From the NCBI RefSeq assembly GCF_902459465.1, contig NC_047072.1, positions 15,103,776 through 15,167,775 on the forward strand: a DNA stretch of 64,000 nt, given 5' to 3'. This DNA comes from Asterias rubens. Its lineage: Eukaryota. A model generated the notes under the pieces. That model did not search any database. It had not been told where the DNA came from and saw nothing but the letters and a program-made list of their open reading frames with translations. The translations under genes and the position numbers were made by a program. Positions 9,101 to 58,136 of the stretch are shown piece after piece (within the stretch, counting starts at the first letter, position 1; every line of letters starts with the position of its first letter).

Positions 9101-12100
9101 TGGGGCTGGTTCAACCACAAGTTCAATCATATGGGAATACTCAAATGTAAACTGTTGTGACTCTCATGCATGTGCTCTTTTTAATGAATGGCCTATTTGT
9201 TATTCCACTTTCCTATTCTTATTCATGATTTTCATGCTAGCTTATATCTTTAATGCATAGCTGATTGTTTATGCCTAGTGAACACATTCATTATATATCG
9301 ATTTCAAACAGAGAAATTTATCTTTGGAGGCGAAGCGGCATATTTCGGCCCACCCCCTCTGCCCGTAAACACGTGCATATGATAAAAGGGTACAAGTACT
9401 TTTGATGTCATATTACGTTCGTCATCCTTGAAACGGAATTACCGTACTTCTCTATCAAAAGTGCATGTGAGCTTTTAGTAAAAGCAAAACAGGCACTTAT
9501 GCAGAGTGGGAAATGTTGAGCTGCAGATCGAAGACTAGTCGTGCGTACCAGTTCAATGGGAAGGGACTCATCTAGTATCACAGACATTGGGAAAACATCT
9601 CCCGCTGAAGAAGAAAATAAAAAAATAAAAAAATCCGGGAACTTGATCGTGTCCATGTCCTTATCTTTAAACTTTGACATGAGTTCCACTCCTTTATGCT
9701 CTCAATATATAAAATGAGCTCAGCTGTCGGCACCATGCGCGCCTGCGCGTTTTTTAAAGTCTCGAAGTACAGTGACTGAACATTTATCAATCGATGAAGC
9801 AAGACTCTATAGTTGTCCCTGAACGCTCTAAACCCCGTCAGCTATCTGTGTAATAGTAGGAAGAAAAGTGCATCAGCACACCTACCCTTGATAATGGTGA
9901 TGTGTAACTCCCCTGTTATTGGAGTGTGGCCTTCACTTCAGCCGCTGCAATTGTTTCATTGTCTTCCTTGACGCCACTGATGCACTTATCTAAATGAAAA
10001 ATGGAAAATTTTAAATAATGAGCTGCCATTTTTCTTTCATGAGAATATTAGATCTAGACACAGGGTGATGACGCACAACCATTCGGTATTTCGAATTGAC
10101 AATGCTAATGAAAGAAAACCAATCTACGCATGGGGTAATAATTGTGTTACCGGCCATAGACAAAATCTCAATTCAAATGGTGAACAGGATTTAAAATTTA
10201 CATTTGCGGGAGTCAAATGGTGAAAGTCCTTCTATACATAGCTCATCCATCAAACATAAAGTTTTCACCGATTATCAATCCATGTAGGCTGTTTGTATTA
10301 GCAGGGTTTGTGGGATCAGAGATAACATCGGAGATGTTACTTGGGGTATCTCATTTTCAGAATCATTAAAATATACACGTGTACATCTACATATTGGACA
10401 GTTTAATCTTTAAGGTAACTGAAACCGTGGATCAATATTTTGTCATGCCTTGCTCATTGGCCTATATAATTGGCATGCTACTACGCTGCTTTTACGAAGA
10501 TAAAATACCCACAGAATTATGCATCGCTCATGTACAACTCATCTTTGAAAATGTCCCTATGCATGCCCGTTTTCCCCCAACAACAAGACACGAGTTAATG
10601 TGTAATTTCTCAGAGGAATAAAATCTGAGCGAATCACAAATAGCTGTTGACATAAATTTGCTGTTTTCTTTGAGCGTAGGCGCTTTCAATGAAAGGAACA
10701 TTAGGTTACCCACTTCAGCGTCTTTCGAGCGCGGCGGCATGCTGTCCAGGCTCACCACCGTTCGGCATACAGCAATTCGTTTTGAAAGCCGTAACGACTA
10801 TAGAATTTTCCTTAGTGCAACGTTAGTTGACGATGGTTAATAAATTTAAACAGTAAAAGTATGGCAAATCTTTTAAGTGCAGACCAACTTAACGACTGTT
10901 TTTCATATGCAAATTTAATTACTTATAGGAGGCGTTGGACTTTCCTGCTCAATTAATTTCCTTTGGTGGTTTTTAATGGGAAATTATTGCAGCATTGTGT
11001 TTTGAGATGTTTGTAACGCGTGCCCTCATAATGATACAACTGTGGCATTTTCCGTATTCATTAAAACATTTTGAACAGTATTTATGTCCCATGTTTCACA
11101 ACAGTATTACAATGAATGACACACACGTTTAAGGCAGCAAAATGTCATATATGAAAATCCTTTCCACAAAATAAATCCATTAGTGTTTTTGTTATAAGCT
11201 TACATGTGGCGGACACAATCATTTCAATGCTGTCTCGTTGCTTAAGGAAAACGCCTAAAGTAATCCGCTCATTAAGTATACAGAAATTTACTATTTTTAT
11301 GCTAAAAATAAAACAAGGGCAGACAACGACGGTGTTTTAAGCTACTGATTTATCGAAAGTGATAGTCAGTAATCATGAAAGATTTGCCGACGGTACAATC
11401 CATTACTACGTCTCAACAAATAAATCATGATTTTTATCACCCATTTACCCACTATATAGAATGAGTGAAAACTGCAGAGATGTACATCGTGGATCTCATA
11501 TAAGAAGAAACCCAAATGAAAGCAGATGCAAACCGTCGCAAATTACTGCTGGGACATCCAGGGCAATCTTTTAATCTTTCTTATACCCGGTGATTGGAAT
11601 TGATGCCTGGGTCTTAATGTTTAGGAGACCATAGATCAAAGGCCCACTTACTTTTCAAATATTCCTCCAGGGAAAGAACAGCTATAGCTCCAATAAAGAA
11701 GACCCATTGCATCATTGATAATGTTGGCCAAAACAAGTCTGTACTGTATGCGTGCTTCCTCTTTTTGAAAAGTATTTAAAGGCACTGTAAATCAAATAGA
11801 CCATTGATGACTAATTATTATAACAATTGAATTCACGTCCAAAAAAAAAACAAGCAAATTCTTTTTAACATGTTATTGAATAGTGCAATTATTAGCCTTG
11901 CATCTTTTTGACACTGTGTGTTGAGAAAGTTGTTTAATTTATTTGTTACTTCATTTCCTTGTGTTGCCAATGAAACATAACAACCTTTCATTCTTTTTAT
12001 TAACCAAAAACTAAAACTGGTTGATCATATTTCGGGTTTTTTGTTGCCAAGATAAAAGGTTTAAATTTATTGGCGTGTATACCTTAATTATGCTGAATTT

Positions 12101-19697: not shown

Positions 19698-22264
19698 CTT
19701 AAGTTTTAAACATACACAAATACATGTACACCCATATCAATGTTGTAGCCCTGGAAATAATTCACTTGGGCCTTTGTTATAACATGGATACCTAATTGGT
19801 TCAACTGTAGTCTGGATAGTCTACACTTAACAGTTTACAATTGTCCAGGTCAAATCAATTTTGGGGCCCAATTTATGTAAAAGATGACCAACTTCAAACT
19901 CGACTTCTGTATTACAGCAAACCCTGGTACTTTTTTAATTGGCTATAAATGCAATGCATCTTTACAACAAATCTTCTTTGGAAGAAAGTCTTCAAGACCT
20001 TATGGTTGGTAAAATGTCAATCAAGCTTTTGATTCAAGATGACATGCTTAAATTCACTGCATCAAAGTCAGACAAGGAATTCACTGCTGAATTTTATGAG
20101 AACTGAAAAAGTTAAACTTGCATCCCAATTGGGAGGTCGACCCAATATGCCATTTAGTGGAATCATAAATCTTGCTTGGCTACTTTTTGTGTTTAAGAAA
20201 ATATAGCTGAACAGTTCTCTACTTAGCAAGAATATAAGCACGAAACCAATCACAAAAGGTACATATCTTATTATGGCAAGCACATTTGCATTGTGCTTAG
20301 CTACTTTTTGTGCGTAAACAGCTCTATGCATTGGGCCCTGATTATTATTCATATAATTAGCATTCCAATAACAGGCGTTTAATGAAGATGTAAGATTGTG
20401 GTGGTAATGTCAAACCTGGTTCTATGAGTTTTTAATCTTTTAACTTTATATTTATGTCTTAGTTTCTTTACAGTGTTCCACATATACATGAACATTTTAA
20501 CAAAAATGTTTATTAATTTGTAAACAAAGGGTGGATTTTATGTAATTGCTTTGCAGAGTTGTCAGTTACATTGCTTAACCGTCTTTCAATTTTCAGGGGT
20601 GAAAACCATTTTAGTTTACAATTTGTATATTTTTTATAAATTTGAAAGAAAGAAAAACTCCCACCATTTATGCAAGCCCTGTAAGGCTCTTGCATTTTGT
20701 AAATAATGTATAATTTCAATAAATATCTGTAATCTGCGTGTAAGGATTTATGTACTCAAACTACTAAGAAAATCACATAATGAAGCTATTTTAATAGAGT
20801 GGAAGTAACAACTTGAAGCATTAATTGTTGTGTACAAACATTCCACTTGATCATCAACCAAGTTCATCTTTGAGTTTGTGTTTTAGTTTTAATTACTTTT
20901 GGTGCAAGTTTTGGATCACAGTGAAATGATGTTCCTTGATCATTCTTACCAAACTATTTACTACTGGCACAGTCGGTGGTTTGTTTTGTGTTTTTTATCT
21001 CACAATCTTGACATAATTTTAGATTGACTTCACATATTGTTTTTGTGTCCAATAGGCAAATGGCCTTACCTAAAATGAAAAATGGCTCAGCATTATTTTG
21101 ATGGCTACATATTTAATAACAGAAAACACCAATGTCAATCCTTTGTCTTTTTGTTTTCAGGTACAGCATTGGTTATGTAGATAGAAAAAATGCAACTTTA
21201 ACAGCGAAAATGTGGCGTATTGATACTTTTCTTCCCCATGCCCCCAGAGTCAATCTCATGTTTGCCGAGGGAGTTTTCGTTTTGGGTGACGGATGGTTCT
21301 GCAATAGTAAAAATGTACACCACCACCGTCCGCTGTATCAAGTATCCATTCTACGGACAACCCATTGATTTTTCAGGCTGATGAACTTTTAGTTGATCAC
21401 ATGAGCAAGTTCAGTATGCGGACTGCGCATGTATGAATATTTATCAGTATGTTGAAACACCAAACGTCAGTTTTAAGCAAAACGTAGAATCATTCCAGGT
21501 ACTGTCATAGAAATTGACGGGCGACTGTCCTCAAAGTTGACGCATGCGCCGATAACTCAATGTGTAGTTTTCACCGTCGTAGAACCATCCATCATCCACA
21601 AACTCCCTAATCACAAACAGGAGACCATTGTGGTGAAGGGAGGGGGGGGGGCGGAAAGGCAGACTAAGATAAATCACCTGGGGCAGTGGGTTAAAGGAAC
21701 ACGTTGCCTTGGATCAGTCGTTGAAAAGCGTATGTAACTGTTTGTTATAGAATGCATATACATGTACATGTAATTAGAAAGATATTTTAAAAGTGGAATA
21801 TAATGATTCACACAAGTATCACTCCAAATTGCGTGGTTTTCCGTTTACCTCGTCGACAAACATGGTCGGCCATTTATGGGAGTCAATTTTTTTACTCAAA
21901 TGGCCGACCATGTTAGTTCGCAACTGTGTGTGGATCATTGCATTCTACTTTAACATCTTTCTACCCATATGCAATTTATAACAAACGGTTACAAATGCTT
22001 TTCATAGACCAACTCGACCGATCCAAGGCAACATGTTCATAACCTGTAACATTTCTGCTTCCAAAGGTCCTATGCTGTACCTTCCTTTAAACATTATGTT
22101 TCTCCCTAGTTGACTATCACTGTGTCGTGAACATAAATGCACAACGTAAACTGTAACAAATTTAAATTTCCAGCAAGTATTTGTTTCAGTAAGTAAATAA
22201 AAAATGCCTTTGCTTTTATTAAATGATACCAGAGTGTTGCTTACATTTGTTATAGATTATATTT

Positions 22265-22644
22265 AAAGACACTGGACACTATTAGTAATTGTTAAAGACC
22301 AGTCTTCTCACTTGCTGTATCTCAACATATGCATAAAATAACAAACCTGTGAAAATTTGAGCTCAATCAGTCATTGATGTTGCGAGATAATAATGAAAGA
22401 AAAAACACCCTTGTCACACGAAGTTGTGTGCTTTCAGATGCTTGATTCCGAGACCTCAAATTCTAAATCCGAGGTATAGAAATCAAATTCGTGGAAAATT
22501 ACTTCTTTCTCGAAAACTATGGCACTTCAGAGGGAGCCGTTTCTCACAATACTATCAACAGCTTCCCATTACTCATTACCACAAAGTAAGTTTTTATGCT
22601 AATTAATATTTTGAGTAATTACCAATAGTGTCCACTGCCTTTAA
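22265..22644 (+). mobile_element. MITE copy 1 (about 380 bp; TIR AAAGGCAGTGGACACTATTGGTAAT; internal palindrome gatttcgagacctcaaatt...aatttgaggtctcgaaatc)
   Basis: It starts aaagacactggacactattagtaat and ends attaccaatagtgtccactgcctttaa. It lies in an RPL24-downstream or intergenic position. The orientation label is arbitrary. Confidence 0.8.
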
Positions 22645-22878
22645 ACCCCAAAATGAAACACAGCCTGATACTTCACAGAGAGGCTAACTGAGCCAAACTG
22701 CCTTGATGCCCCTAGAACTTTACATTTCACAGAAGAGCACTTAACGATGTTGAACTGCCTTGATATTTACCAGAATGAGTATCAGGTCGGCCAACAACCT
22801 AATCCTTAAATTAAGAAAAAGACAAGAAAGAAACTTGATGACACCATCTTTGTCAGTATTTCAACCGTGAACTGGCTT

Positions 22879-22884
22879 TTTATT
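22879..22884 (-). terminator. RPL24: putative RPL24 polyadenylation signal (AATAAA on the minus strand)
   Basis: The plus-strand sequence tttatt lies about 120 nt downstream of the RPL24 stop. Confidence 0.4.
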
Positions 22885-23002
22885 CATATTTGTACACAAC
22901 CAAGAATGAATAAGAAGTAATTATGAGCTTCTTGAGTGAAGGGAGACGAGTTTACCAGGATTTGATATTGATGACTAGTGAATGATTATCGGATGTTAAA
23001 GT

Positions 23003-23077
23003 TTATCTTTTGCCAGAGACACGTGGCGCTTTGACCTTGGGCATCTGGGCTGCCTTTTGCTTCACTGGCTTGGCCGT
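23003..23077 (-). CDS. RPL24: ribosomal protein L24, last exon with stop
   Basis: Acceptor ttttcacag|ACG. TAKPVKQKAAQMPKVKAPRVSGKR, then TAA at 23003-23005, compared with the human C-terminus KIVKPVKVSAPRVGGKR. Confidence 0.85.
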   Translation of the reverse strand, partial: TAKPVKQKAAQMPKVKAPRVSGKR

Positions 23078-24807
23078 CTGTGAAAAAGAAAAGAAAGTAT
23101 AGTGTCATAACAAGGAAAATCCAAACAAGCATAAAAATACAGGGTAACATTAACAGAACAGTCAAAATAAGGAAACTATTGTAATGGAACATGTGCAACC
23201 AAGGGGAAATAAACCAACCCAACAAGCTCTGCCTGTTAGTGCAATAAATCACTGCAAAACAAAAAGTATGTGGTAAAAAGCATTTTATACTTGATCCCTC
23301 GTGCAAATTGTTACAATCTCTTTAAAAGTCCCAAACATTGCAAAATGCAAAGAAGTTTTGATGATTGCTGTCTTGTGCATTTTGTTTGTGACATGATGTA
23401 TATGTGTTCAACCCTAAAATGGTCACATGAATATACAATGTAGGCGGAGCTTTATGGATAGGTTTATTGTTAGCGCTGTTAAGCACATGAATGGCACATC
23501 AATGGCACAAGCACAAAAATGGTTTTGATTATAACGAACGGTTAACCAGCCAAAACGAGAAAAAAAAATTAAAGACCTGCTTGAACGAAAATGTCAAATC
23601 ATGAACGAAAATGTCAAGTCATGAACTTTGCTGAATTCCACTTAAAATGTTTTTGATGAATAAGGAAATCGAGTCATATGATTATAAATAGGTTTCAATT
23701 GTGTAAAAAAACAATCATTTTGTATGCCCTTGTTCAGAGCTTTTCTGCGAGATTTGCGAAAAGCCCCGTTATGTAATCACTCTCAAAACGTCATAAGTAG
23801 ATAAAGCCGCTTTGTTGCAGCATGGATGTATAACAAAGCAAACTCCCACAAATGACGTCAGCGGCATTGTCCTTTGACGCCCGCTCTCAACGGCAGAAGT
23901 GTTTTTAGTTTTTCAAAAAACCTTTAGGTAGGGGCCTGATTTTTTACTCGATAATTACGAAAAGTTCAGAAGTGTACACATATCAAAATTACATTAAAAT
24001 GGTGAACAAGTGCATTATAAACAAGTAAAATCACCATTTCTGTTGAAAACATTCCGCTCAGGTAGCTGTTTAAATGTGCAGTTTGTGACTGTCCCCTGCT
24101 TATTTACGCATAGTTGGCATTCTCCACTAAGCAGCAACGGATTGTCCCCCTTGACAAAAATGGGGGTTGTGCATGTGTTCAACAATTCAGGGCCAGTTAC
24201 GTAGAGCTGCCTAAGCCCAAAGTGCCCAAGCACAACAAAATGATGCTTTACAGAAAAAAAATTACAGTAATTATCAACCAAACATTATTCTACATCTAAA
24301 ATCTATTACTGGTATCGTGCTTATGTTTGCTTGGTATAATTTGTGCAAGTAATAGTTGATGCTAAGCAGCTCTTTGAAACTGTGCCCTGGATAACCTTGG
24401 CTACCAAAGTAAGCTTATTCTAAAAGTTCATTGCTTTGAAGTGTGAAAGAAAAAGTCCACACAGGTATTCAGAGTTAAAAAACACTCAAGACCTACACAA
24501 CAGTCCATTATTTTAAGGGATACTGTGCTAGCCCTGAGCTTGAGCAATTTAAGTCAAAATAATAAAAACGATAAAAGAAAAACAGATGGATCTTCTGCAC
24601 ATAAAAGCAGCCTTGATACTTCACTAAGCAACTGCCTCCATGCCCCTAATCATTGCCTAGGTGTAGGGGTATAAATTAACAGTGGCCCCGCTGGCCCAGA
24701 CAAATGATGGGACAGTGAAAACAAATTATCTTCCTAAAAATATCGCTGAATCCTTCTGGACTGTCCAGCAAGCTACATGTCCGATGAGATTTTTATGGTT
24801 AGGATTT

Positions 24808-25193
24808 AAAGGCAGTGGACACTATTGGTAATAACTCAAAATAATTATTAGCATAAAACCTTTCTTGGTGACGAGTAATGGGGAGAGATTGATGGTATAA
24901 AACGTTGTGAGAAACGGCTCCCTCTGAAGTGCCATAGTTATTGAGAAAGAAGTAATTTTCCACGAATTTGATTTCAAGACCTCAGATTTAGAAATTGAGG
25001 TCTCAAAATCAACCATCTAAACGCACACAATTTCGTGTGACATGGGTGTTTTTTTTATTTCACTTTTATCTCGCAAGTTCGACGACTGATTGAGCTCAAA
25101 TTTTCACAGGTTTGTTATTTTAAGCATATGTTGAGATACACCAACTGTGAAGGCTAGTCTTTGACAATTACCAATAGTGTCCACTGCCTTTAA
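24808..25193 (-). mobile_element. MITE copy 2 (full length, inverted relative to copy 1), inside RPL24 intron 4
   Basis: aaaggcagtggacactattggtaat ... attaccaatagtgtccactgcctttaa. Confidence 0.8.
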
Positions 25194-25273
25194 CCGTTAC
25201 AAAAAAATACCCCAAAGTGCCGCAAAATGCATACCCTATTGCGATCATGATGTACACAGTTCTTTGAACTTAC

Positions 25274-25331
25274 CTTCTGTTGTGATGCTTTCTTTGAAGC
25301 ACTGTTTGCCTTCGCCTTCTCCTTTGCAGCT
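25274..25331 (-). CDS. RPL24: ribosomal protein L24, exon 4
   Basis: Acceptor aacag|A; donor CAGAAG|gtaagt. (K)AAKEKAKANSASKKASQQK matches the RPL24 K/A-rich tail (RAAKEAKKAKQASKK). Confidence 0.85.
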
Positions 25332-26978
25332 CTGTTAAGTTAACATTAGAAGAAGAAAAAAATCATGTTTAAAATAAATCATCAGGAAATGTCTGGCAAA
25401 TGAACACAATACAAATAAGACAATAGACATTTTTTAGAATTGTTGTCCATGTGGTGAGAAGTATCAGTTAAGTATCAGTTAAGTTTAATACCTAAAAAAT
25501 TGATGTTGGACTAGACAGACCATTAACCACACTCAAGTTGGAAGGTACACACTAACAGCTTTGTCAATTTAGTATTTCAATAATCGCAGAGTCAGTCATT
25601 CATTTTTGTGCGCATTAATGAACAGAGTTGACTGCACCCCAATAGTACACTACTACTGGGTCTCCTCCTCCATTTGACCTTTAACACCCAACACCCAACT
25701 CCCCACCAACCAAGGGCGTCGATCGCTATTCATTACCTTTACGTTTAGATGCTGTGTTACACGTCTTCCCTACTTTTTGTTTGACAAGGAGGCGAGTTAC
25801 AGGGGGTGATAATTAACAATAACATCATCCGATGGAGTTTGGGAACTTGTTTCCCTCATGTAAAACCGAGATTCTATCAAATTCAAACATCGTATGCACA
25901 GTCTTTTTTAATTGTAACAACATCGCAAAAGATTATTGGGTAAAATTTCAAGAATTCTTTATGTTTTTGTTTCCTTTCTTTTTCTTTTATTTTAAGATAT
26001 TTTACCTTCAAATTTACTACATTTTTTTACCGCGTGTACAATGTATCAGTTGGCCTGAGCCAAAATTCCCGTCCGGCGCAATGGCTCAATGCAACAATCA
26101 ATGCTCTTTCACACCATTTAAAAACATTTTGATTTAAAGGGCCTTTGTATTTGCTATAGCTGTCTTTATTTAATATGTTTACTTGTATATACTGTTTTTG
26201 TGAACATTATTGTCTTTGAATCTTGGCCGAATAAATAGTATTTATAATAATAATAATGATCTTTAGAAGAGCTGACCGTGCAGTATGTTGTTCTTCTCGA
26301 AGCTTGGGGTCGAGTTTTGCACATTGACATCAGGTTGGATTCTTCAATTTAAGATTTTCAGAAGCAAGGTTGTGATTGGACACTCATGTTGTCTAAATTT
26401 ATCTGTGCTCTTCTTCTTGCAAAATCCCTTTGACACAAAAGCCTCATCTGAACAGTGGGCAAGCAGAGTAAGACTTTGTGGAGTAGCACTATTGGTTGGT
26501 TAATATCCATTTTGCTTCTTTGACAACTGAGCCCAAACTGCTCGGAGCTGCTCCTATGGATTTTACTGAATTTTGTGCCTTGTGTGATTGTAAAATAAAG
26601 GTAAAACATTCTGCATCGTGTACTGAAACTTATCGTCTATTGTCTGTATTAAAGAAACGGAAATAGGCCCCAAATACCATTCTGAGTGTGGTCCATCAGA
26701 ACCATGATCAGAATAAAGATGAAATTGAAGAAGACATTTCACCGTTTGTCCGCAATTCTTTTATTTGAACAAACAGTGTAATAATATCAAGAAAATTATG
26801 TATATTTTATACTTTATTGCACATTTTCTAATGACAGTCAATCAAAAAGTGGGGGGGGGGGGACATCTGATATGCTGTCCCCCCCAGTCTGAAAAGTACC
26901 GCACCCATTGACGCCCTTGCCACCAACACTCCCCATCACCACTCCCCACCAACACCCCCTCAGTTCCTATGTACTTAC

Positions 26979-27226
26979 TTGATGGCTTGCTCCCTCTGAG
27001 CCTTGCGCACCTCAGGCTTCTGGTTTCTCTTTGCATTGATCTGCTCCAGGGAGACACCAACGATGGCACGATGAAACTTTGTGGCACGTCTCGTCCTCTT
27101 CTTGGAAACCTCTTCTTGAGTTCCCTTCTTGTGTTTACGACGGTAGAGGACTGTCCAGTTGATCTTCCTGGGGTTTTTCTTCATCATGAATGAAGCCAGG
27201 CATTTGTTGCTGACAAAGCTGAACAC
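26979..27226 (-). CDS. RPL24: ribosomal protein L24, exon 3
   Basis: [82 protein letters not shown] aligns to human [85 protein letters not shown]-track ORF 26975-27268. Confidence 0.95.
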
Positions 27227-27600
27227 CTGTTTTAGGAGACAGAGAAATGAAGGCGGGTCAGGGCACAAGTAGCTCTACATGTAACATGCTGAATAATTAG
27301 TCCACTCTTTCTCAAAAAACAATTTGAGGTGCGCAAGGCTCAGACAGAGAGAGCAAGCCATCAAGTAAGTACATAGGAAAAAGAAATTTTTACCCCTTTC
27401 AAACCATGACACAAATTCTTCGGACACGACCTTAATCCTCAATATCTAATGAATAACATGATAACACCATTGAGAAAGTATTTCGAAAAAAAGTACAGAT
27501 CCCAGAGCATAACAGTCACAAATTTCCAAGGTTTTGAACCTATTTTGAACCTGTCGCTTTGCCATTTTGTGACTTCCCAATGTTCATTGCTGTTGGACTA

Positions 27601-27760
27601 AACCATTCTGTAAAAGGGGTGTTATAAGGCAGCGTGGCAGGGCGTGTGCGCTGTCCGTTTACTATGCCCGCTGTTCACTCACTAGCGCACTGCCGCTGCA
27701 CCCATTGTAACACCCCTATTACAGAATGGTTTAGTCAAACTCGGCTGCCGCTCGGTCGGC
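27601..27760. repeat. foldback (hairpin) element of about 130 bp with a 30-bp tail, copy 1, in RPL24 intron 2
   Basis: aaccattctgtaaaaggggtgttat ... taacacccctattacagaatggtt are inverted repeats. They are followed by agtcaaactcggctgccgctcggtcggcag. Confidence 0.6.
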
Positions 27761-28212
27761 AGGTCATCAATTCAATTGGCTGGTACCTGCGGTTGGGTTC
27801 AGCGCCTGGGGTCAGCGACAGGTTCAAAAATAGAACGTGGGAAATTTGTGACTGTTTCGCTCCCGGGATCTGGTAAGTTTTTGTCCTTTTTTTCAAAATA
27901 TTTTTTCAATTGTGTTTTTGGATGTTATTCATTAGATTAGACATTGAGCATTAAGTTCGTGTTCATAGAATTTGTGTCATGATTTTTTAAAGTGGTAAAA
28001 AATGAGCAAATCTGTTGACTTAAATATTTCGCACTGAATCGATAGCGAATAACTCGTAACCCTCCGGCTACGCTGTCGGCAGGAGGGTTACGTTATCGCA
28101 ACTACATTTTCTCCCCCAAATAATTATTTTCTTGATGATATTGACTGTCTATAATTCATTGTTAAATCTAGTCACTAGTCTGACATTTAATGGACGAAAT
28201 TGCACAGAAGTG

Positions 28213-29675
28213 TCTCCGTAACTGGTCGGTCGGTCTGTATAGTATTACAACGATCGAGTGGAGGCTGGAGCGGACTACTCCTAGAACTATTTCGGTTTTG
28301 TCCGTCTCCCGTAACCTCACGGCTGTGCGCCAAAAGTGTACATACTGGTACCCTGTGCGAGCTTCGTGGTTCTGTGTATCCTGGTGTCATGTGTTTTCAG
28401 TAGGATAACAGGAAAATTGTTCACAATCAAAAACTAAATATTTTTTTTTCAAATCATCTATCCAATTTTTTAACAATAACACTTTCATTTCATGGTGTGT
28501 TGAAATTTTTAAAGTTTTGGTTTTACGTTGCAAGAGACAGTCGGCCATTAACAGTGCTTGTGCATGCACGACATTGGAGCAACGTCATATGTTTTCACAC
28601 CTTTCATTGGTTGGTATTTTATTGAATATTCAGAAGCTAGTATGGCGGGCAAAGTAAATCAAAATTATTATTCAATTAGTACTTGACAAATTTAATTACA
28701 TTTTTGTCCTAAGGCATTATGGCTACAATATTATAATCCAGAGATATCATAAGGCATGAAAGTAAAACACCCCAACCCCCCCCCCCCCCTTGATGCACTC
28801 ACACTTCATAACAATCCGTTTTCCCCCATTTCAGACCAGTAATGTTTGGTTTGGTTTCAGGAGATAAGAAACCAATCTATGATATTTTCTCTTAAATGTA
28901 GACTTAATATTTATTAAGCTTATCGGAATTTATAACAGTTATGCAGTAAATAAATAAAAAAAATTGTTGTCATTTTCACTTAAAATATTTTAATATTTTC
29001 CCCACATTTGCGCACCATAGAATCCCAAATAGTAACCACCTAACGTGATCCATCTAGTGACTCAAGCAGAGTGAAACTCAATCTAGCAGATAGTAAATTT
29101 GTTTGGAACTTTCGAGGTTGGATGATGTTTCTTTGACTCACTTGAATGTTGGCATAATAATGCAATTGTGATTAGTACCAAAAATCAATCATTTTATAAA
29201 TGTTTGAGCATAACCAACGACAGGAAACTTTATTCTCGGCATGATTAAGCCTGATGAAAATACAGACCGTGAGTAAACTGCATAGCTTCTGTCACCGGTG
29301 CAGCTTGCACAATTTCGTGGTAAACGGGAATCAAAGTTGGGGACCGAAAACATATGAGGGTCGATAACGTATGACGCTACGATATGTTTTGTACACAAAG
29401 CACGGATCGTACCCGCCCTCTCGTGACGCGAATTCTATGGTCGCCCCCTGGCACATTGATCAAAGGACACAAAGCGCCTAATTTTGGCGAGATTAAAAAA
29501 AAAAAGGAGAGACTTCTGATTAAAAAATTCATTGAACCCATGGGTCGTTAAACGCGTGAGAGATATAAACCTATGAGGTTACGGGAGACGATAGCCGGAC
29601 GAAACCGAAATAGTTCTAGGAGTAGGAGCGGGCTACATATTGCGACCGGACGAGTACGATTATTGCAACTTTAGA
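28213..29675. mobile_element. TIR-bounded element of about 1.46 kb in RPL24 intron 2 (possible non-autonomous DNA transposon)
   Basis: 28213-28320 is the reverse complement of 29574-29675, with a core of about 55 bp (tgaggttacgggagacg..aaaccgaaatagttctaggagtag) that is nearly identical. The interior is AT-rich and non-coding. The ORFs at 28187-28408 are GC-rich TIR artefacts. Confidence 0.45.
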
Positions 29676-29841
29676 GTCGTTATGGCATGAATTGTTCACT
29701 AAGGGAGCATTTGGCAAAGCAAAGAGGTTGTATCTCAGTTAAAAGACCCTTAACTATTATATTAATATGTTTAATAAAAATTACAAATAAGACTACGATA
29801 AGAGGAGTAAAACGGCCGTAGGGCGACTGTTACTTGCTTAC

Positions 29842-29917
29842 CTTGCCATCGATTCTTGCGAATCGGATGCCATGTCCGGCATGAATTTTGTACCCACTGA
29901 AATGGCACAACTCCTGC
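29842..29917 (-). CDS. RPL24: ribosomal protein L24, exon 2
   Basis: Acceptor tcttag|G. (K)[25 protein letters not shown] aligns to human RPL24 (K)[25 protein letters not shown]. Donor AAG|gtaagc. The length of 76 nt is phase-consistent. Confidence 0.9.
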
Positions 29918-30052
29918 CTAAGATAAAAACAAAATACAAAGAAATGTCAAATTTAAGAACTGAAATTTGAACAGGTATTACGAGAAATATATATTTTTCC
30001 GGTTTTATGGTGATGTGGTGAGATTGAATAAGATCGGATTCCGGATACTTAC

Positions 30053-30057
30053 TTCAT
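30053..30057 (-). CDS. RPL24: ribosomal protein L24, exon 1 (ATGAA only; most of the exon is 5' UTR)
   Basis: The minus-strand sequence CTTTTCCCTAGAAAGTCGTCAAAATGAA|gtaagt has the start codon immediately followed by a consensus donor, as in many ribosomal-protein genes. Joining to exon 2 gives [14 protein letters not shown]. Confidence 0.75.
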
Positions 30058-30080
30058 TTTGACGACTTTCTAGGGAAAAG
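30058..30080 (-). promoter_or_regulatory. RPL24: RPL24 5' UTR with a terminal-oligopyrimidine (TOP) motif, CTTTTCCCT at 30072-30080; likely transcription start
   Basis: The minus-strand pyrimidine tract CTTTTCCCT lies 15-23 nt upstream of the ATG. Ribosomal-protein genes start transcription at a C within such a tract. Confidence 0.5.
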
Positions 30081-30212
30081 GCTGTAGGTCATCGTCTGGC
30101 ATTGAACCTACACAGGAGGGCGCTATGCCGATTTAACGGTGGCGATTTTTTTTTGGCAGAAAAATTAACGGTGGTGTTAAATACCGCCCTCATACGTTTG
30201 GACGTAAGTATA

Positions 30213-30220
30213 TGACGTCA
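30213..30220. promoter_or_regulatory. perfect palindromic CRE (TGACGTCA) in the RPL24 promoter, about 135 bp upstream of the TOP motif
   Basis: tatgacgtcatc was read directly. Flanking repeated motifs ttaacggtgg (30143 and 30178) and gggcgctat (30117 and 30301) suggest further factor sites. Confidence 0.4.
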
Positions 30221-31237
30221 TCATTCTGAAACGCAATGCATGATGGGACAATATTAAGGGTCAAAAGTCAATTGATACTGCATAAGCTTTAAATGTAAGA
30301 GGGCGCTATTTAACCACACCGTATACAATCCAATTTAGACATCGGTCGATGACAGAAAATGTCAAAATTTCGAAAAAGGAATACAGCGCCCCAGTTACTG
30401 GGTCTAATAACAGCACAACATTGTTGTAACAAGGTGGTGGGCTAAGTGACCCCATTAATTTTATTTCTAGCCCTGTTTATAGGAGCAAAAAACTGTGCCA
30501 CTGCCAGGAGTAAAATTTAGTGGAATAAAGTTTATTGAAACAAAGTAATATATCAAAGTGTTCTTGGACCCTCATTTAGAGGATTGTTTTATTTAGAATA
30601 AAATACAAATATTTTCCAGCACTGAACTTTGTATGAAATTTCAAAAAAGTGTATGAATTATTCCTTTAGAGGTGATTAAATTAAATTAACTTGGCAAGGT
30701 ATAAAACATTATTACAGATAAAATAGTTAATAAAACAATTAACTATTTTTATTCTGAGACAAGATCATAAAACCTTGGTGCTAGGCTATTCTTTTCACAG
30801 TAAATCAATCAATCTATATGCATACAATAGTAGAGTGTAATCAATTTAGTTTCTTGCAGTAACACTATCAATCAAGATTACTTCTCCAATAGTTGATAGG
30901 CAAACTCCTTTGCGTAGTTATGTTGAAGGCAAACTTTCAACCTGCTCAAGGTCAAAGCGAGTTGTGGTGTTACTTTACGCCCACTATCTCTTTTGAACTT
31001 TAATTTTTGACTTGAAACTCTTAATTCTTTAGTTGTTTCAGAGTAAGAATTGTCATGTTACACTTCTCAACTAAAAATGAATAGATGTAAATTTGCACCA
31101 GGGATAATGGAATATTAATTAATTATGGTTAACCCATTTTACACTGATGTAAATAACGACTGTGATTTTTTACAAAATATTAATTTAAAAAAATAATGAA
31201 TACTTTGTAAAAAAACAAAAAAACTAAGAGTCCTTCC

Positions 31238-33365: not shown

Positions 33366-33952
33366 CTGTAAAAAAAATAGAGGGAAAACACAATTCAGAA
33401 ACGAAAAATGGTTGAACACGGCCCATGCACCACTGCCTTTCCCTGATTGATTCACTAGGCACTCCTTATTGCGATAACGTAACCCTCCCCCCAATGGAGA
33501 AGCCGACGGAGGAGTGTTACTGATAGCTCACAGCTCACTCCTCCAGTAAAGTTGGGCTAAAATCATAGAGCTATATTAGCTCTTAGTAATAGTATTATGG
33601 CTTCAGTTTCTACTCCTTTTTTAAGTCAGATTTTGTTGTTTTTTGTAATTGTTAATAATAATGAATATAATATCAGCAAATTTTTATCAAATTTAATCAA
33701 TTTTTTGTTTTTTGTAATTTTAAACAACATAATAATGAATTTAAACACGTCAATTTATTTTATAGGGTATATTAGTTGCGATAACGTTTCCTAGCAAAAA
33801 ACACAATGTCAACAGATTTACATTAAACTTACACAGTTTGAAGATTATGATAGTAGAAAGCTTCCCTTGAAATTTTACTTACTGAGGTGCTGTACTTTTT
33901 GAGAAATTAGTAAAAGTAATAATTTTCATCTCAGTGCATGTAAAAACGCATT

Positions 33953-34331
33953 AAAGGCAGTGGACACTATTGGTAATGACTCAAAATATTTATCATCATA
34001 AAATCTTTCTTGATTACAAGCAATGGGGAGAGATAGATGGTATAAAACATTGCGAGAAACAGCTCCCTCTGAAGTGACGTAGTTGTCGAGAAAGAAGTAA
34101 TTTTCCACGAATTTGATTTTGAGACCTCAAGTTTAGAATTTGAGGTCTCGAAATCAAGCATCTGAAAGCACACAACTTCGTGTGACAAGGGTGTTTTTTT
34201 CTTTCGTTATTATCTCGCAAATTCGACGACCGATTGAGCTCAAATTTTCACAGGTTTGTTATTTTATGCATATGTTGAGATACAACAAGTGAATTGTCTT
34301 TACAATTACCAATAGTGTCCACTGTCTTTAA
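33953..34331 (-). mobile_element. MITE copy 3, inside CRYL1 intron 1
   Basis: Same TIRs and internal body as copies 1 and 2. Confidence 0.8.
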
Positions 34332-34668
34332 CCAGTTATGCTATGGTTTGGGTATAATATCATAACTGGTTAAGGGGATTTTACATGCTAAAATAGTTTT
34401 GGTCTCATGAGACCAAAACTATTTTGTGACTTGTTTTACTCCTTTCTCAAAAACTACACAACCTTAGTTAGTAATATTTGAAGGGAAGCTTTCCAATATC
34501 ATTATCTTCAAACCCTGTAAGTTTAATGTAAATCTGTGGACATTTTGAAAAAGTATCCGAATTAAGTCATTAACTTCTGTCATGTATTTTGTGATATTTT
34601 TAATTATATGGGGGCCTATTATATTAAAGTATTATTGATAATGAATTGAATTAAATTGAATTGAATAC

Positions 34669-35420: not shown

Positions 35421-36001
35421 GTAAAGGCAGTATCCTCAGTTTTAATTTCTGTATTTTAATCCCCCATAAAAACAAACAACAAGTCAAAAATTAGGCTGTT
35501 CGTATGTAGTGCCCAGTTTCCGGACATTAGACCTGCTACTCACCCGGCCTACTTCTACTAGGCTCCCTCGGAGCCTTATTAGGGGTCTTACTATTTTGGG
35601 CCTCCTCCTTAACGTTAAACATTTTATTAAAATCGGCGTTGATAGATGAAAGTTTTACGACCGTTAGCCACCAATAACTGAAGTTTCCTTTGTAAATTGT
35701 ATATTGTTTTTTTGTAGTAAAAAAAATTGACAACATAACCAACAAAACTTTCCCAGACCCCACACACTCAATAGACATAATGCTTGCATTTAATTTCCTT
35801 TTTGTTGAGTGAAGTTAAAAAACATCCTCAAAAAATGCAACTTTCTCTCTGCTCGGATACTCACTGTTCTTTTTCTGCCGCATCGCCAGTTTTTTTACTT
35901 CTCAATATATATGCTCAACGCTTTATTTTTTGGGTCACCAAGCGCTGAACCGCGGGTACAAGCCTATTGGATTGACGAACTGCCGCGGCCATTATAGACT
36001 A

Positions 36002-36160
36002 AACCATTCTGTGGAAGGGGTGTTACAGTTGGGCAGTGCGTGCAGCTATATGCGTGAACGGCAGGTATTGTAAATGGACAGCATTCACGCACTGCCGTAC
36101 TGACTTTTAACACCCCTTTTACAGAATGGTTAAGTCCGACTCGGCTGCAGCTCGGCAGTT
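36002..36160. repeat. foldback element copy 2 (same family), in intron 1 of the unidentified gene
   Basis: aaaccattctgtggaaggggtgtta ... taacaccccttttacagaatggtt, then agtccgactcggctgcagctcggcag. Confidence 0.6.
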
Positions 36161-36449
36161 CCTTAATCTAGTAGGCTGGTGCTTGCGTGTACAGCACTTG
36201 GTGACCAAAAATAAAGCGTTGAGCAAAGAAGTAAAAAAAATAGATTGTTTTTTCAGTTGTTTGCATATAATGTTTTTGCTTTTGCTATATTATATTTGGC
36301 TTCTCAAAATAGCCAGTTTGCAGTTAATGATGATTTGTGGGACATAGCATTATAACAACAATCAGCATACATTTTGTAAACATTGATATGGCATCCAGTA
36401 TTTCGATTTTCTCAATTTATTTGTTTAACCTTTGAACTTTTTAAATTAG

Positions 36450-56844: not shown

Positions 56845-57060
56845 ATGTTAAATTTGCATCGGGATAAAGAATATAAACTTTGGCTTTTACCCATACACCG
56901 ATGTGTGTATGCACTGTATACTCAGTACTTTCCCGAGCCCTGTGAACAAATATCACAGGCATGTTACTCGGGTGGGATTCGAACCCACGACCCTTGCAAT
57001 TCTAGAGCAGTGTCTTACCAACTAGACTACCGAGGTTGCCCGGTAGCTAGAGGCAGTTCA
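56845..57060 (-). mobile_element. tRNA-derived SINE copy (about 215 bp) in a REV3L intron
   Basis: The body gatgttaaatttgcatcgggataaagaat...acccatacaccgatgtgtgt...cagtactttcccgag is followed by the reverse-complemented tRNA-like head gggattcgaacccacgacc...agactaccgagg...ggcagttca. Confidence 0.65.
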
Positions 57061-57276
57061 CACACACAATTCACATTACGTATTTCACCGTCTGCTAAGA
57101 ACTGACTCTTAGATAATCCGTCTCCCTAAATAAAAATTGTTTTTATTTAAGGCAAGCTGGTCTGTCTTTACATGAAAGGCATTAGGTCTTAGCTGCTCAA
57201 CCCTTGCAAACTATAAGGCCTGGAATTCAAACTATGAGAGGCCAATACTGATTTCGTTCACAAAGGGAAAAACTTT

Positions 57277-57652
57277 AAAGGCAGTGGACACTATTGGTAA
57301 TTGTCAAAGACTAGCCTTCACAGTTGTTGTATCTCAACATAAGCAGAAAATAACAAACCTGTGAAATTTTCAGCTCAATCGGTCATCGAACTTGCGAAAT
57401 AATAATGATAGAAAATAAACACACGAAGTTGTGTGCAGTTAGATGGTTGATTTCGAGACCTCAAGTTCTAAATCTGAGGTCTCGAAATCAAATTCGTGGA
57501 AAATTACTTCTTTCACAAAAACTATGGCACTTCAGAGGGAGCCATTTCTCACAATGTTTTTACCATCAACCTCTCCCCATTACTCGTCACCAAGAAAGGT
57601 TTTATGCTAATAATAATTTTGAGTAATTACCAATAGTGTCCACTGCCTTTAA
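57277..57652 (+). mobile_element. MITE copy 8 inside a REV3L intron
   Basis: Full TIRs and internal palindrome. Confidence 0.8.
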
Positions 57653-57753
57653 GTCTATGGGAAAGTTCTGAGGGGCTACCAAGCCAAGACTAGGTCAACA
57701 TTGGAAATACAGTGAACATCATGTATTAAGATTTAAGAGTAAAGACTGCTTAC

Positions 57754-57922
57754 CACCATCGCTCTGTTCGCTGCTTCCTTGGCTAGCTGTGTCATGCTGT
57801 TGAGGTGTATCTTGTTGGATGCTATAAAACAATGCTCTGATTGGATCAGAGTCTGGGTCTGGATGATAGTCACGTCTTGTCTTGATGTGTAGCTCAAGGC
57901 TCATAATACTCAGATGCTGAAC
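57754..57922 (-). CDS. REV3L: REV3L exon
   Basis: VQHLSIMSLELHIKTRRDYHPDPDSDPIRALFYSIQQDTP... aligns to human IQNLTLISVELHARTRRDLEPDPEFDPICALFYCISSDTP (ORF 57719-57928). Confidence 0.85.
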
Positions 57923-57969
57923 CTTCAATCACATGATAGAACACAGACATAAGAGATCTTATAACAAAT

Positions 57970-58136
57970 CACTGCCTCTAGCTACCGGGCAACCTTGGTA
58001 GTCTACTAGTTGGTAAGACACTGCTCTAGAATTGCAAGTAACAAGCCTGTGATATTTTTTCACAGGACTCGGGAAAGTACATCGGTGTATGGGTAAACAA
58101 CAAAAATTAATATTCTTTATGCAAATTTAACATCTC
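57970..58136 (+). mobile_element. tRNA-derived SINE copy (opposite orientation, with internal deletions) in a REV3L intron
   Basis: cactgcctctagctaccgggcaaccttggtagtctactagttggtaagacactgctctagaattgcaag...ttctttatgcaaatttaacatc. Confidence 0.6.

What the first reader, a model, noticed from the sequence alone, without database searches (positions are those of the whole stretch)
26961..27376. Inverted duplicate of the RPL24 exon-3 3' end plus donor site sits just upstream of exon 3 and could loop out the exon in the pre-mRNA
The plus-strand segment 27326-27376 (gaggtgcgcaaggctcagacagagagagcaagccatcaag taagtacatagg) is an inverted copy of the minus-strand exon-3 end and 5' splice site at 26966-27013 (GAGGTGCGCAAGGCTCAGAGGGAGCAAGCCATCAAG|gtaagtacatagg). 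In the minus-strand transcript this places an antisense copy of about 50 nt in the upstream intron, only about 100 nt before the exon-3 acceptor. Pairing with the real exon end and donor would bracket the entire 248-nt exon 3. Ribosomal-protein genes are known to autoregulate through pre-mRNA structures or unproductive splicing. This element could be such a device, or a neutral local inverted duplication.
Basis: seen in the sequence. Interest (0 to 1): 0.6.

Follow-up and report, generated by a model that had tools for sequence, protein, structure and literature searches.

The report
Young inverted exon-end copy in starfish RPL24
A starfish ribosomal-protein gene (RPL24/eL24) carries, just upstream of exon 3, a recent back-to-front copy of that exon's end and splice donor that could zip up with the real donor in the RNA. 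Three other starfish lack the copy, including a species of the same genus, so it looks like a repair or transposon scar in an unstable intron, not a conserved regulatory device.

Summary
Window 27325-27379 (+) is an inverted copy of 26964-27014, which is the last 35 nt of eL24 exon 3 plus the first 16 nt of intron 3. The two differ by one substitution and a 4-nt insertion, and chance does not explain the match.

In the minus-strand pre-mRNA the arms are predicted to form a 51-bp duplex (-96.6 kcal/mol). This duplex buries the GUAAGU donor (pairing probability about 1) and loops out the acceptor and most of the 248-nt exon.

The element is not conserved. It is absent from Asterias amurensis (same genus, identical eL24 protein), Acanthaster planci and Patiria miniata. 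In A. amurensis the same donor is predicted to be mostly unpaired.

The copy sits in a transposon-rich intron that has been heavily rearranged between the two Asterias genomes. It lies 7 nt from a 615-nt foldback element and at the edge of a block with no counterpart at the A. amurensis junction. Its near-identity to its source implies an age similar to or younger than the species split.

The best reading is a neutral or mildly harmful local inverted duplication. It is a by-product of break repair or transposon activity and has a testable potential to mask a splice donor. No evidence supports autoregulation. Interest is low to moderate.

The parts
27325..27379 (+). Inverted copy (55 nt) of the exon-3 end plus donor. 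In the minus-strand pre-mRNA it is the upstream, antisense arm, lying in intron 2 with its end 98 nt before exon 3.
26964..27014 (-). Source and downstream arm (51 nt): the last 35 nt of exon 3 (27013-26979, plus T at 27014) and the first 16 nt of intron 3, including the donor GTAAGT at 26978-26973.
26979..27226 (-). eL24 exon 3 (248 nt). Together with the 98-nt intron tail and the acceptor it forms the 310-nt loop of the predicted structure.
27227..27324 (-). Last 98 nt of intron 2 (branch-point-like CTGAC, polypyrimidine tract, AG). Positions 27311-27227 are orthologous to A. amurensis L004 12374-12458. Positions 27324-27312 (AATTGTTTTTTGAG) have no counterpart there.
27387..28001 (.). 615-nt foldback (MITE-like) element with TA on both flanks, 7 nt from the copy. 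Its palindromic core (27592-27740) belongs to a repeat family with copies at window 35997-36155 and L004 3858-4011. It is absent from the A. amurensis intron.
27312..28103 (.). Block between segment D and segment E that has no counterpart at the orthologous junction of A. amurensis. It holds about 100 nt of unique or repeat sequence, the foldback element, 7-11 nt, the inverted copy and 13-14 nt of filler.
28276..29624 (-). Neighbouring element 'TE1' in intron 2. Its 51/44-nt terminal inverted repeats (29624-29574 and 28319-28276) differ by one substitution and a 7-nt indel. It is flanked by CCCGCTCC / TCCGCTCC, and the site is empty in A. amurensis. The inner ends of its repeats carry the same hexamer (ACCTCA/TGAGGT) as the exon copy.
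28379..29382 (-). Element 'TE2' nested in TE1, flanked by TA. A. amurensis has the empty site AAAACA-TA-CACGG.
29842..29917 (-). eL24 exon 2 (76 nt). Exon 1 ends at 30053 (ATGAA, 30057-30053).
25274..25331 (-). eL24 exon 4 (58 nt).
23003..23077 (-). Coding part of eL24 exon 5, with stop codon.

Best explanation
This is a young, lineage-restricted local inverted duplication. A 51-nt stretch spanning the exon 3/intron 3 junction of the eL24 gene was copied in reverse orientation into intron 2, about 310 nt away.

The most likely origin is a by-product of DNA break repair or template switching in an intron that is a nest of transposons and has been extensively rearranged (inferred). It was not selected as a regulator.

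At the RNA level the two arms can form a 51-bp duplex that buries the exon-3 donor and loops out the exon. This is shown thermodynamically, not in vivo. If the duplex forms, it should lower U1 access to the donor and yield some intron-3 retention or exon-3 skipping. It would also make a substrate for double-strand-specific enzymes such as ADAR.

The gene is an essential, highly expressed one with a near-consensus donor, and the partner arm lies about 350 nt upstream. The net effect is therefore most likely small, neutral to slightly deleterious (inferred).
For: (1) The repeat is real and near-identical, with 1 substitution and 1 indel in 51 nt.
(2) It is absent from the orthologous eL24 loci of A. 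amurensis (protein 100% identical, exon 3 98% identical), Acanthaster and Patiria. No inverted or direct second copy of the exon end exists anywhere in 15-26 kb around those genes.
(3) The same donor is predicted to be mostly unpaired in A. amurensis (unpaired probability 0.5-0.98) but 0.0 in the window. The MFE is -127.9 against -173.8 kcal/mol.
(4) The copy lies 7 nt from a 615-nt foldback element. It sits at the edge of a block with no counterpart at the A. amurensis junction (window 27311 corresponds to L004 12374).
(5) The same intron holds at least three mobile-element insertions with empty sites or truncated copies in the other species.
(6) The only substitution gives a G.U pair and the indel gives a bulge. 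There is no compensatory change and no sign of selection on pairing.
(7) Copy-source divergence of about 2% is of the same order as per-lineage intron divergence between the two Asterias genomes (3-10% pairwise).
(8) Templated inverted insertions made by foldback synthesis or template switching at breaks are documented (PMC11724301; SD-MMEJ papers listed).
(9) In human, stable complementary pairs that loop out exons are depleted and are associated with lower exon inclusion (PMC8052449). This fits such a structure being tolerated or mildly deleterious and not designed.
Against: No transcript data could be examined, so an in vivo effect on splicing, large or small, is untested.

The direction of change is unresolved. 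A. amurensis carries truncated transposon fragments that abut the homology breakpoint, so a deletion there could have removed an older copy.

No microhomology is visible at either junction of the copy, so the foldback or template-switch origin is not directly supported.

Only three orthologues could be retrieved, one of them close. Other asteriids were not available.

A -96.6 kcal/mol duplex over the donor of an essential gene is not obviously harmless.
Confidence: 0.7

Rival explanations
1. The element is a functional cis-regulatory RNA switch. The upstream antisense arm masks the exon-3 donor or loops out exon 3, so that eL24 output is tuned by unproductive splicing, either as autoregulation by eL24 or as sensitivity to helicase level or elongation rate.
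For: The duplex is very stable and covers the whole donor. Splice-site masking and exon loop-out are established mechanisms (PMC10790352; PMC8052449). Several RP genes are autoregulated by alternative splicing coupled to NMD (e.g. RPL10A, PMC4937301, listed). Intron-3 retention would place a TAA directly at the junction, upstream of two further junctions.
Against: The element is absent from the congener with an identical protein and from two further starfish. There is no covariation. The copy carries a bulge-forming indel. Exon-3 skipping gives a frameshifted 76-aa product whose stop lies in the last exon, so it is not an NMD target by the exon-junction rule. No skipped isoform is on record. 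No eL24 binding motif or Rfam family is present. No metazoan eL24 autoregulation turned up in the one literature search made for it; the only eL24 mention was a yeast over-expression screen in which both paralogues drop, which its authors suggest may reflect protein degradation.
Confidence: 0.07
2. The element did not evolve for a purpose but is molecularly consequential. The duplex forms in vivo and measurably alters RPL24 RNA. This would appear as reduced efficiency of intron-3 removal or as promiscuous A-to-I editing of the exon-3 end and donor, making it a slightly deleterious and possibly polymorphic allele.
For: Same structural evidence as above. The duplex (17 + 33 bp around a bulge) lies 7 nt from a foldback hairpin with arms of about 230-300 nt, so a long double-stranded region is predicted. 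Conserved complementary regions overlap A-to-I editing sites and generally obstruct splice sites that lie in double-stranded structure (PMC8052449).
Against: No transcript or editing data could be accessed. From my own recollection of Eperon et al. 1988 (Cell 54:393, which appears in the reference list of PMC7404189), hairpins that sequester a donor lose effect in vivo once the loop exceeds some tens of nucleotides; here the loop is 310 nt. The donor is near-consensus (CAA|GUAAGUAC).
Confidence: 0.2
3. The inverted copy is an assembly or sequencing artefact, for example a chimeric long read or a mis-polished palindrome, and does not exist in the animal.
For: The region is rich in palindromes, which are difficult for assemblers. 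Only one genome carries the copy.
Against: The copy is short and internal, has sharp ends, and differs from its source by a substitution and a 4-nt indel. That pattern is not typical of missed-adapter palindromes. The flanks are unique sequence continuous with orthologous intron sequence.
Confidence: 0.03

Closest known systems
Long-range pre-mRNA structures that mask a splice site or loop out an exon (human conserved complementary regions, PCCRs; Drosophila intronic long-range pairings; the tau exon 10 donor hairpin)
   Same: Two complementary stretches lie in one pre-mRNA, one intronic. The predicted helix covers a 5' splice site and encloses an exon. This geometry is associated with exon skipping or donor blockage.
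   Different: The known functional cases are conserved or show compensatory substitutions. This one is absent from the sister species and shows no covariation. It is much longer and more perfect (51 bp) than typical regulatory helices, because it is a recent duplicate and not an evolved pairing.
Templated inverted insertions made by foldback, snap-back or template-switch synthesis at DNA breaks (yeast foldback inversions, SD-MMEJ, Pol theta-type templated insertions)
   Same: A short inverted copy of sequence a few hundred bp away on the same molecule is inserted at a site of structural change, with small errors.
   Different: The reported yeast events are mostly 5-34 bp and use microhomology next to the break. 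Here the tract is 51 nt, the template is 310 nt away, and no junction microhomology is visible.
Ribosomal-protein autoregulation through own pre-mRNA (yeast RPL30, RPS14 and RPL22; nematode/mammal RPL10A, RPL12 and RPL3 by alternative splicing coupled to NMD)
   Same: An RP gene carries an unusual structure or sequence next to a splice site. Intron-3 retention would be unproductive.
   Different: Those elements are conserved, often ultraconserved, and are bound by the protein. This one is species-restricted, is simply the antisense of the gene's own exon end, and has no evidence of protein binding or of alternative isoforms.
Exon-intron duplexes used as ADAR editing sites (editing-site complementary sequences, e.g. 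the GluA2 Q/R site)
   Same: An exon pairs with a complementary intronic sequence to give a double-stranded region over coding bases.
   Different: The known complementary sequences are conserved and usually lie downstream. No editing evidence exists here and the element is not conserved.

Membership tests
RP-gene autoregulatory pre-mRNA element | Element conserved among related species that carry the same RP gene | tested here: not met
   Absent from A. amurensis (identical eL24 protein), Acanthaster planci and Patiria miniata.
RP-gene autoregulatory pre-mRNA element | A regulated unproductive isoform exists (alternative splice product, usually an NMD target) | tested here: inconclusive
   No exon-3-skipped product in the protein collection. 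The predicted skip product ends in the last exon and is not an NMD target, while intron retention gives an immediate TAA. No RNA-seq was available.
RP-gene autoregulatory pre-mRNA element | Binding of the encoded protein to the element | not testable with these tools
   Requires biochemistry. No Rfam family matches in 22000-31000.
Functional long-range RNA structure (splice-site masking or exon loop-out) | Two complementary regions in the same transcript with stability beyond chance | tested here: met
   The 51-bp duplex is -96.6 kcal/mol. The fold has z = -6.2, with 0 of 100 shuffles as stable, and it persists in a 1151-nt context. Shuffling the copy removes about 46 kcal/mol and frees the donor.
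Functional long-range RNA structure (splice-site masking or exon loop-out) | Evolutionary conservation or compensatory substitutions in the helix | tested here: not met
   One arm is missing in all three orthologues. Within the pair there is only one G.U-forming change and one bulge.
Functional long-range RNA structure (splice-site masking or exon loop-out) | Measured effect on splicing | not testable with these tools
   No transcriptome reads were accessible.
Templated inverted insertion at a DNA break (foldback or template switch) | Inverted copy of nearby sequence from the same locus, lying at a structural breakpoint relative to a related genome | tested here: met
   The source is 310 nt away. 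The copy lies 13 nt from the point where homology with A. amurensis resumes (27311 / L004 12374).
Templated inverted insertion at a DNA break (foldback or template switch) | Microhomology between primer end and template at the junctions | tested here: not met
   The flanks AATT|TGAGGT and GGAA|AAAG show no match to the sequence adjoining the template. Later mutation could have erased it.
Transposon-carried (transduplicated) gene fragment | Fragment lies inside the element's terminal repeats and recurs with other copies of the element | tested here: not met
   The copy lies outside the foldback arms (which end at 27387) and has no mirror copy beyond the other arm at 28002 onwards. No further copy exists in the 64 kb window or in 57 kb of related loci.
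Flanking intronic inverted repeats that drive exon circularisation | Complementary sequences in both flanking introns, leaving both splice sites free | tested here: not met
   The downstream arm is 35 nt of exon plus the donor itself, so the donor is paired rather than presented.

The most novel reading that the evidence does not exclude
The copy is a newly born, species-specific RNA switch. By masking the exon-3 donor of an essential ribosomal-protein gene, it makes eL24 output in this Asterias lineage depend on co-transcriptional folding, helicase or ADAR activity. If so, the two Asterias species would form a natural with/without pair for watching a splice-regulatory structure arise from a repair scar.
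Probability: 0.06. Interest if true: 0.55.

Novelty: new member of a known kind. Interest (0 to 1): 0.25.

Why it matters
If the duplex forms in vivo, this would be an unusually clean natural experiment. Two congeneric starfish have identical eL24 proteins and nearly identical exon 3. One has a perfect 51-bp mask over a constitutive splice donor and the other does not. Comparing their RPL24 transcripts would show how far a long-range exon-intron duplex with a 310-nt loop can interfere with splicing, or attract RNA editing, in a highly expressed gene.

Otherwise the finding is ordinary. It is one more small structural scar in a transposon-rich intron, and a caution that conspicuous self-complementarity around an RP-gene splice site need not mean autoregulation.

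Tried and rejected
The look-up of the exon-3 ORF found nothing. A metagenome scan for the exon end plus donor pattern found nothing. A protein search with the exon-3 ORF returned no genomic ORFs from closer relatives. Polymorphism and other asteriids therefore could not be tested.

(2) Rfam scan of 22000-31000 at E <= 0.1: no family, and no intronic snoRNA.

(3) Exon-3-skipped isoform: no protein with the predicted frameshifted tail.

(4) Cryptic 3' splice site created by the antisense copy. The antisense of the donor reads TACTTAC, which resembles a branch point, followed by CUUGCUCUCUCUGUCUG-AG with the AG at 27340-27339. Use of this site would add 112 nt and a stop after 8 codons. I rejected it as a strong candidate because position -3 is G (GAG) and the genuine acceptor has a much better pyrimidine tract.

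(5) circRNA driver: rejected, because the donor lies inside the helix.

(6) The copy as part of the foldback element: rejected, because it lies outside the arms and there is no mirror copy.

(7) A 'double snap-back at one break' model. In this model both the exon copy and the 28319-28276 inverted repeat were made at the two ends of a single break at the A. amurensis X''|E junction. The model was attractive at first. It was weakened when the second repeat turned out to be the right terminal repeat of an element with flanking direct repeats and an empty site in A. amurensis. Block C-U also turned out to be a TA-flanked insertion.

(8) Polarising gain versus loss: unresolved. A. amurensis has truncated element fragments at the breakpoint, so it has itself suffered a deletion there.

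(9) Staggered-break inversion model: rejected, because the two repeat pairs lie side by side, each copy next to its own source, not interleaved.

Full report
OBSERVATION. The window carries a five-exon eL24 (RPL24) gene on the minus strand. Exon 1 ends at 30053 (ATGAA). Exon 2 is 29917-29842, exon 3 is 27226-26979 (248 nt), exon 4 is 25331-25274, and exon 5 starts at 23077. The junctions match a spliced, cDNA-like 645-nt sequence from a related starfish (L001, 92% identical). The spliced product is identical to Asterias rubens XP_033636131.1. Positions 27325-27379 (+, 55 nt) match 26964-27014 (-, 51 nt), which is the last 35 nt of exon 3 plus the first 16 nt of intron 3 including the GTAAGT donor. 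The two differ by one substitution (exon AGG, copy AGA) and one 4-nt insertion (CAGA duplicated), and homology ends sharply on both sides. A 19-mer from the repeat occurs only at these two places in 64 kb, and no shuffle reached two matches.

RNA STRUCTURE. Folding the minus-strand RNA 27400-26940 gives an MFE of -173.8 kcal/mol, against -133.2 +/- 6.6 for shuffles (z = -6.2). The closing stem is a 51-bp helix interrupted by a 4-nt bulge, and it encloses the intron-2 tail, the acceptor and most of exon 3. The two arms alone give -96.6 kcal/mol. Every base from 27013 to 26965, including the donor, pairs with its partner, with probability about 1.0 outside the four bases next to the bulge, and the single substitution becomes a G.U pair. 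In a 1151-nt context the helix persists next to the large hairpin of a 615-nt foldback element that begins 7 nt upstream. As controls, shuffling the copy removes about 46 kcal/mol and frees the donor. The orthologous stretch of Asterias amurensis folds to -127.9 kcal/mol, with the donor core mostly unpaired (unpaired probability 0.5-0.98).

COMPARATIVE EVIDENCE. The eL24 protein search identified the source as an asteriid starfish. The cluster member P0121 is the A. rubens / A. amurensis protein and is identical to the window's product. Its encoding contig L004 comes from GCA_032118995.1, the A. amurensis chromosome assembly. The window differs from L004 by 3-12% in introns and 2% in exon 3, all synonymous. 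It is therefore a different genome, most probably A. rubens (inference). In L004, homology with the window runs from exon 3 upstream to window 27311 = L004 12374 and then breaks. The only match to the window's copy is L004's own exon end, in inverted orientation. Searches with each species' own 51-nt exon end plus donor found no second copy, direct or inverted, in L004 (26 kb), Acanthaster L002 (15.6 kb; intron 2 is only about 290 nt) or Patiria L003 (15.5 kb). The element is thus not conserved even within the genus.

ANATOMY OF INTRON 2 AND ORIGIN. Intron 2 (29841-27227) is a nest of mobile elements and differs structurally between the two Asterias genomes.
- A 615-nt foldback, MITE-like element lies at 27387-28001 with TA on both flanks. 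Its core belongs to a family with other copies in the window and in L004.
- A 1349-nt element (TE1, 29624-28276) has 51/44-nt terminal inverted repeats. It is flanked by CCCGCTCC / TCCGCTCC, and the site is empty in A. amurensis.
- A 1004-nt element (TE2, 29382-28379) is nested within TE1 and bounded by TA. A. amurensis has an exact empty site there and a truncated copy elsewhere in the intron.
- A. amurensis has its own insertion of about 970 bp, and truncated pieces of the TE1 and TE2 families abut the homology breakpoint.

The exon copy lies in a stretch of about 790 nt (28103-27312) that has no counterpart at the A. amurensis junction. It is 7 nt from the foldback element and 13 nt from the point where homology resumes. 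Templated inverted insertions made by foldback priming or template switching at breaks are well documented, and this is the origin I favour. I found no junction microhomology to prove it. I also cannot polarise the change, because the truncated elements in A. amurensis show that a deletion happened there too. The divergence between copy and source is 1 substitution plus 1 indel in 51 nt. Per-lineage intron divergence between the species is about 2-5%. This places the duplication at roughly the age of the species split or younger.

PREDICTED CONSEQUENCES. If the helix forms, U1 cannot reach the donor.
- Intron-3 retention puts a TAA directly after the last exon-3 codon (ATC AAG TAA), upstream of further junctions. 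This would be a likely NMD substrate.
- Exon-3 skipping shifts the frame and gives a 76-aa product whose stop lies in the last exon. Skipping is therefore not an NMD switch.
- The antisense copy also creates a branch-point-like TACTTAC, a pyrimidine run and an AG, but position -3 is G, so this is a poor acceptor.
- No skipped isoform is on record.

Literature on long-range pre-mRNA structure shows that exon loop-out and donor masking reduce inclusion, and that stable exon-enclosing pairs are depleted from human genes. That argues such a structure is tolerated or mildly harmful and not designed. The 310-nt loop and the near-consensus donor argue for a small effect in vivo. This rests on my own recollection of Eperon et al. 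1988, whose reference is listed.

COMPARISON AND VERDICT. The element works like a splice-site-masking or exon-loop-out long-range structure. It fails the conservation and covariation criterion that defines the functional members of that class. It also fails the defining criteria of RP autoregulatory elements wherever these could be tested. It resembles a templated inverted insertion in geometry, though it is longer than typical cases and lacks visible microhomology. I file it as a real, young, lineage-restricted inverted duplication whose potential to mask the donor is strong but unproven, and whose most probable status is neutral or slightly deleterious (confidence 0.7). A regulatory role is unlikely (about 0.07), as is an assembly artefact (about 0.03). 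A non-adaptive but measurable effect on RPL24 RNA is possible (about 0.2).

UNEXPLAINED. Both inverted-repeat pairs in this intron, TE1's terminal repeats and the exon copy with its source, are built on a 51-nt unit. In both pairs the copies differ by one substitution and one indel. In both, the loop-proximal ends are the same hexamer (ACCTCA ... TGAGGT). Between 26.9 and 29.7 kb these hexamers occur only at those four places on the minus strand, while across the whole window they occur at about the expected frequency. I could not decide whether this is coincidence or the mark of a common mechanism.

Noticed in passing
window 29624-29574, 28319-28276, 27379-27325, 27014-26964: The two inverted-repeat pairs of intron 2 and exon 3 share three features. 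Both use a 51-nt source unit, both differ by one substitution plus one indel between arms, and both have the hexamer ACCTCA/TGAGGT exactly at their loop-proximal ends. On the minus strand between 26.9 and 29.7 kb, TGAGGT and ACCTCA occur only at these four places. It is unresolved whether this is chance or a common mechanism.
   Followed up: partly
window 28276-29624 (TE1) and 28379-29382 (TE2); L004 about 10406-10414 and 11336-11348: Two nested mobile elements lie in RPL24 intron 2. TE1 has 51/44-nt terminal repeats flanked by CCCGCTCC / TCCGCTCC. Inside it is a TA-flanked 1004-nt element, TE2. A. amurensis shows the corresponding empty sites (GCCCGCTCC|ACTCG and AAAACA-TA-CACGG). It also carries truncated copies of both families elsewhere in the same intron.
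   Followed up: partly
window 27387-28001; 35912-36225; L004 3845-4011: A 615-nt foldback element has arms about 80-86% complementary. Its inner palindromic unit of about 150 nt (27592-27740) recurs at window about 35997-36155 inside another nested palindrome, and in the A. amurensis locus.
   Followed up: partly
window 26932-25710 (intron 3); L004 12732-12753: About 1.2 kb of intron 3 is present in the window but not in A. amurensis. The block is bounded by similar G-rich repeats (GGTGTTGGTGGGGAG-type 13-nt units at 26959-26920, and again near 25710-25680) that start 19 nt downstream of the exon-3 donor. The same block contains a run of more than 10 C at about 26860.
   Followed up: no
window about 25200-24810 (intron 4); L004 2126-2311 and 217-376: A MITE-like element has terminal inverted repeats AAAGGCAGTGGACACTATTGGTAAT ... 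ATTACCAATAGTGTCCACTGCCTTTAAA. Related copies occur elsewhere in the A. amurensis locus.
   Followed up: no
L001 (GCA_014845315.1, JACSEB010018446.1, 645 nt): A spliced starfish eL24 cDNA-like sequence (92% nt identity to the window's CDS) sits as a 645-nt contig in an assembly deposited in NCBI. Another hit in the list, from a different assembly, is labelled 'Salmonella sp.'. This is probably contamination by eukaryotic transcripts.
   Followed up: no
window 33802-34547 and 57023-58005: Two further elements with long terminal inverted repeats are present: 114-nt arms at 86%, and arms of about 65 nt at about 97%. Together with the intron-2 elements this makes five local inverted-repeat loci in 64 kb.
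   Followed up: no
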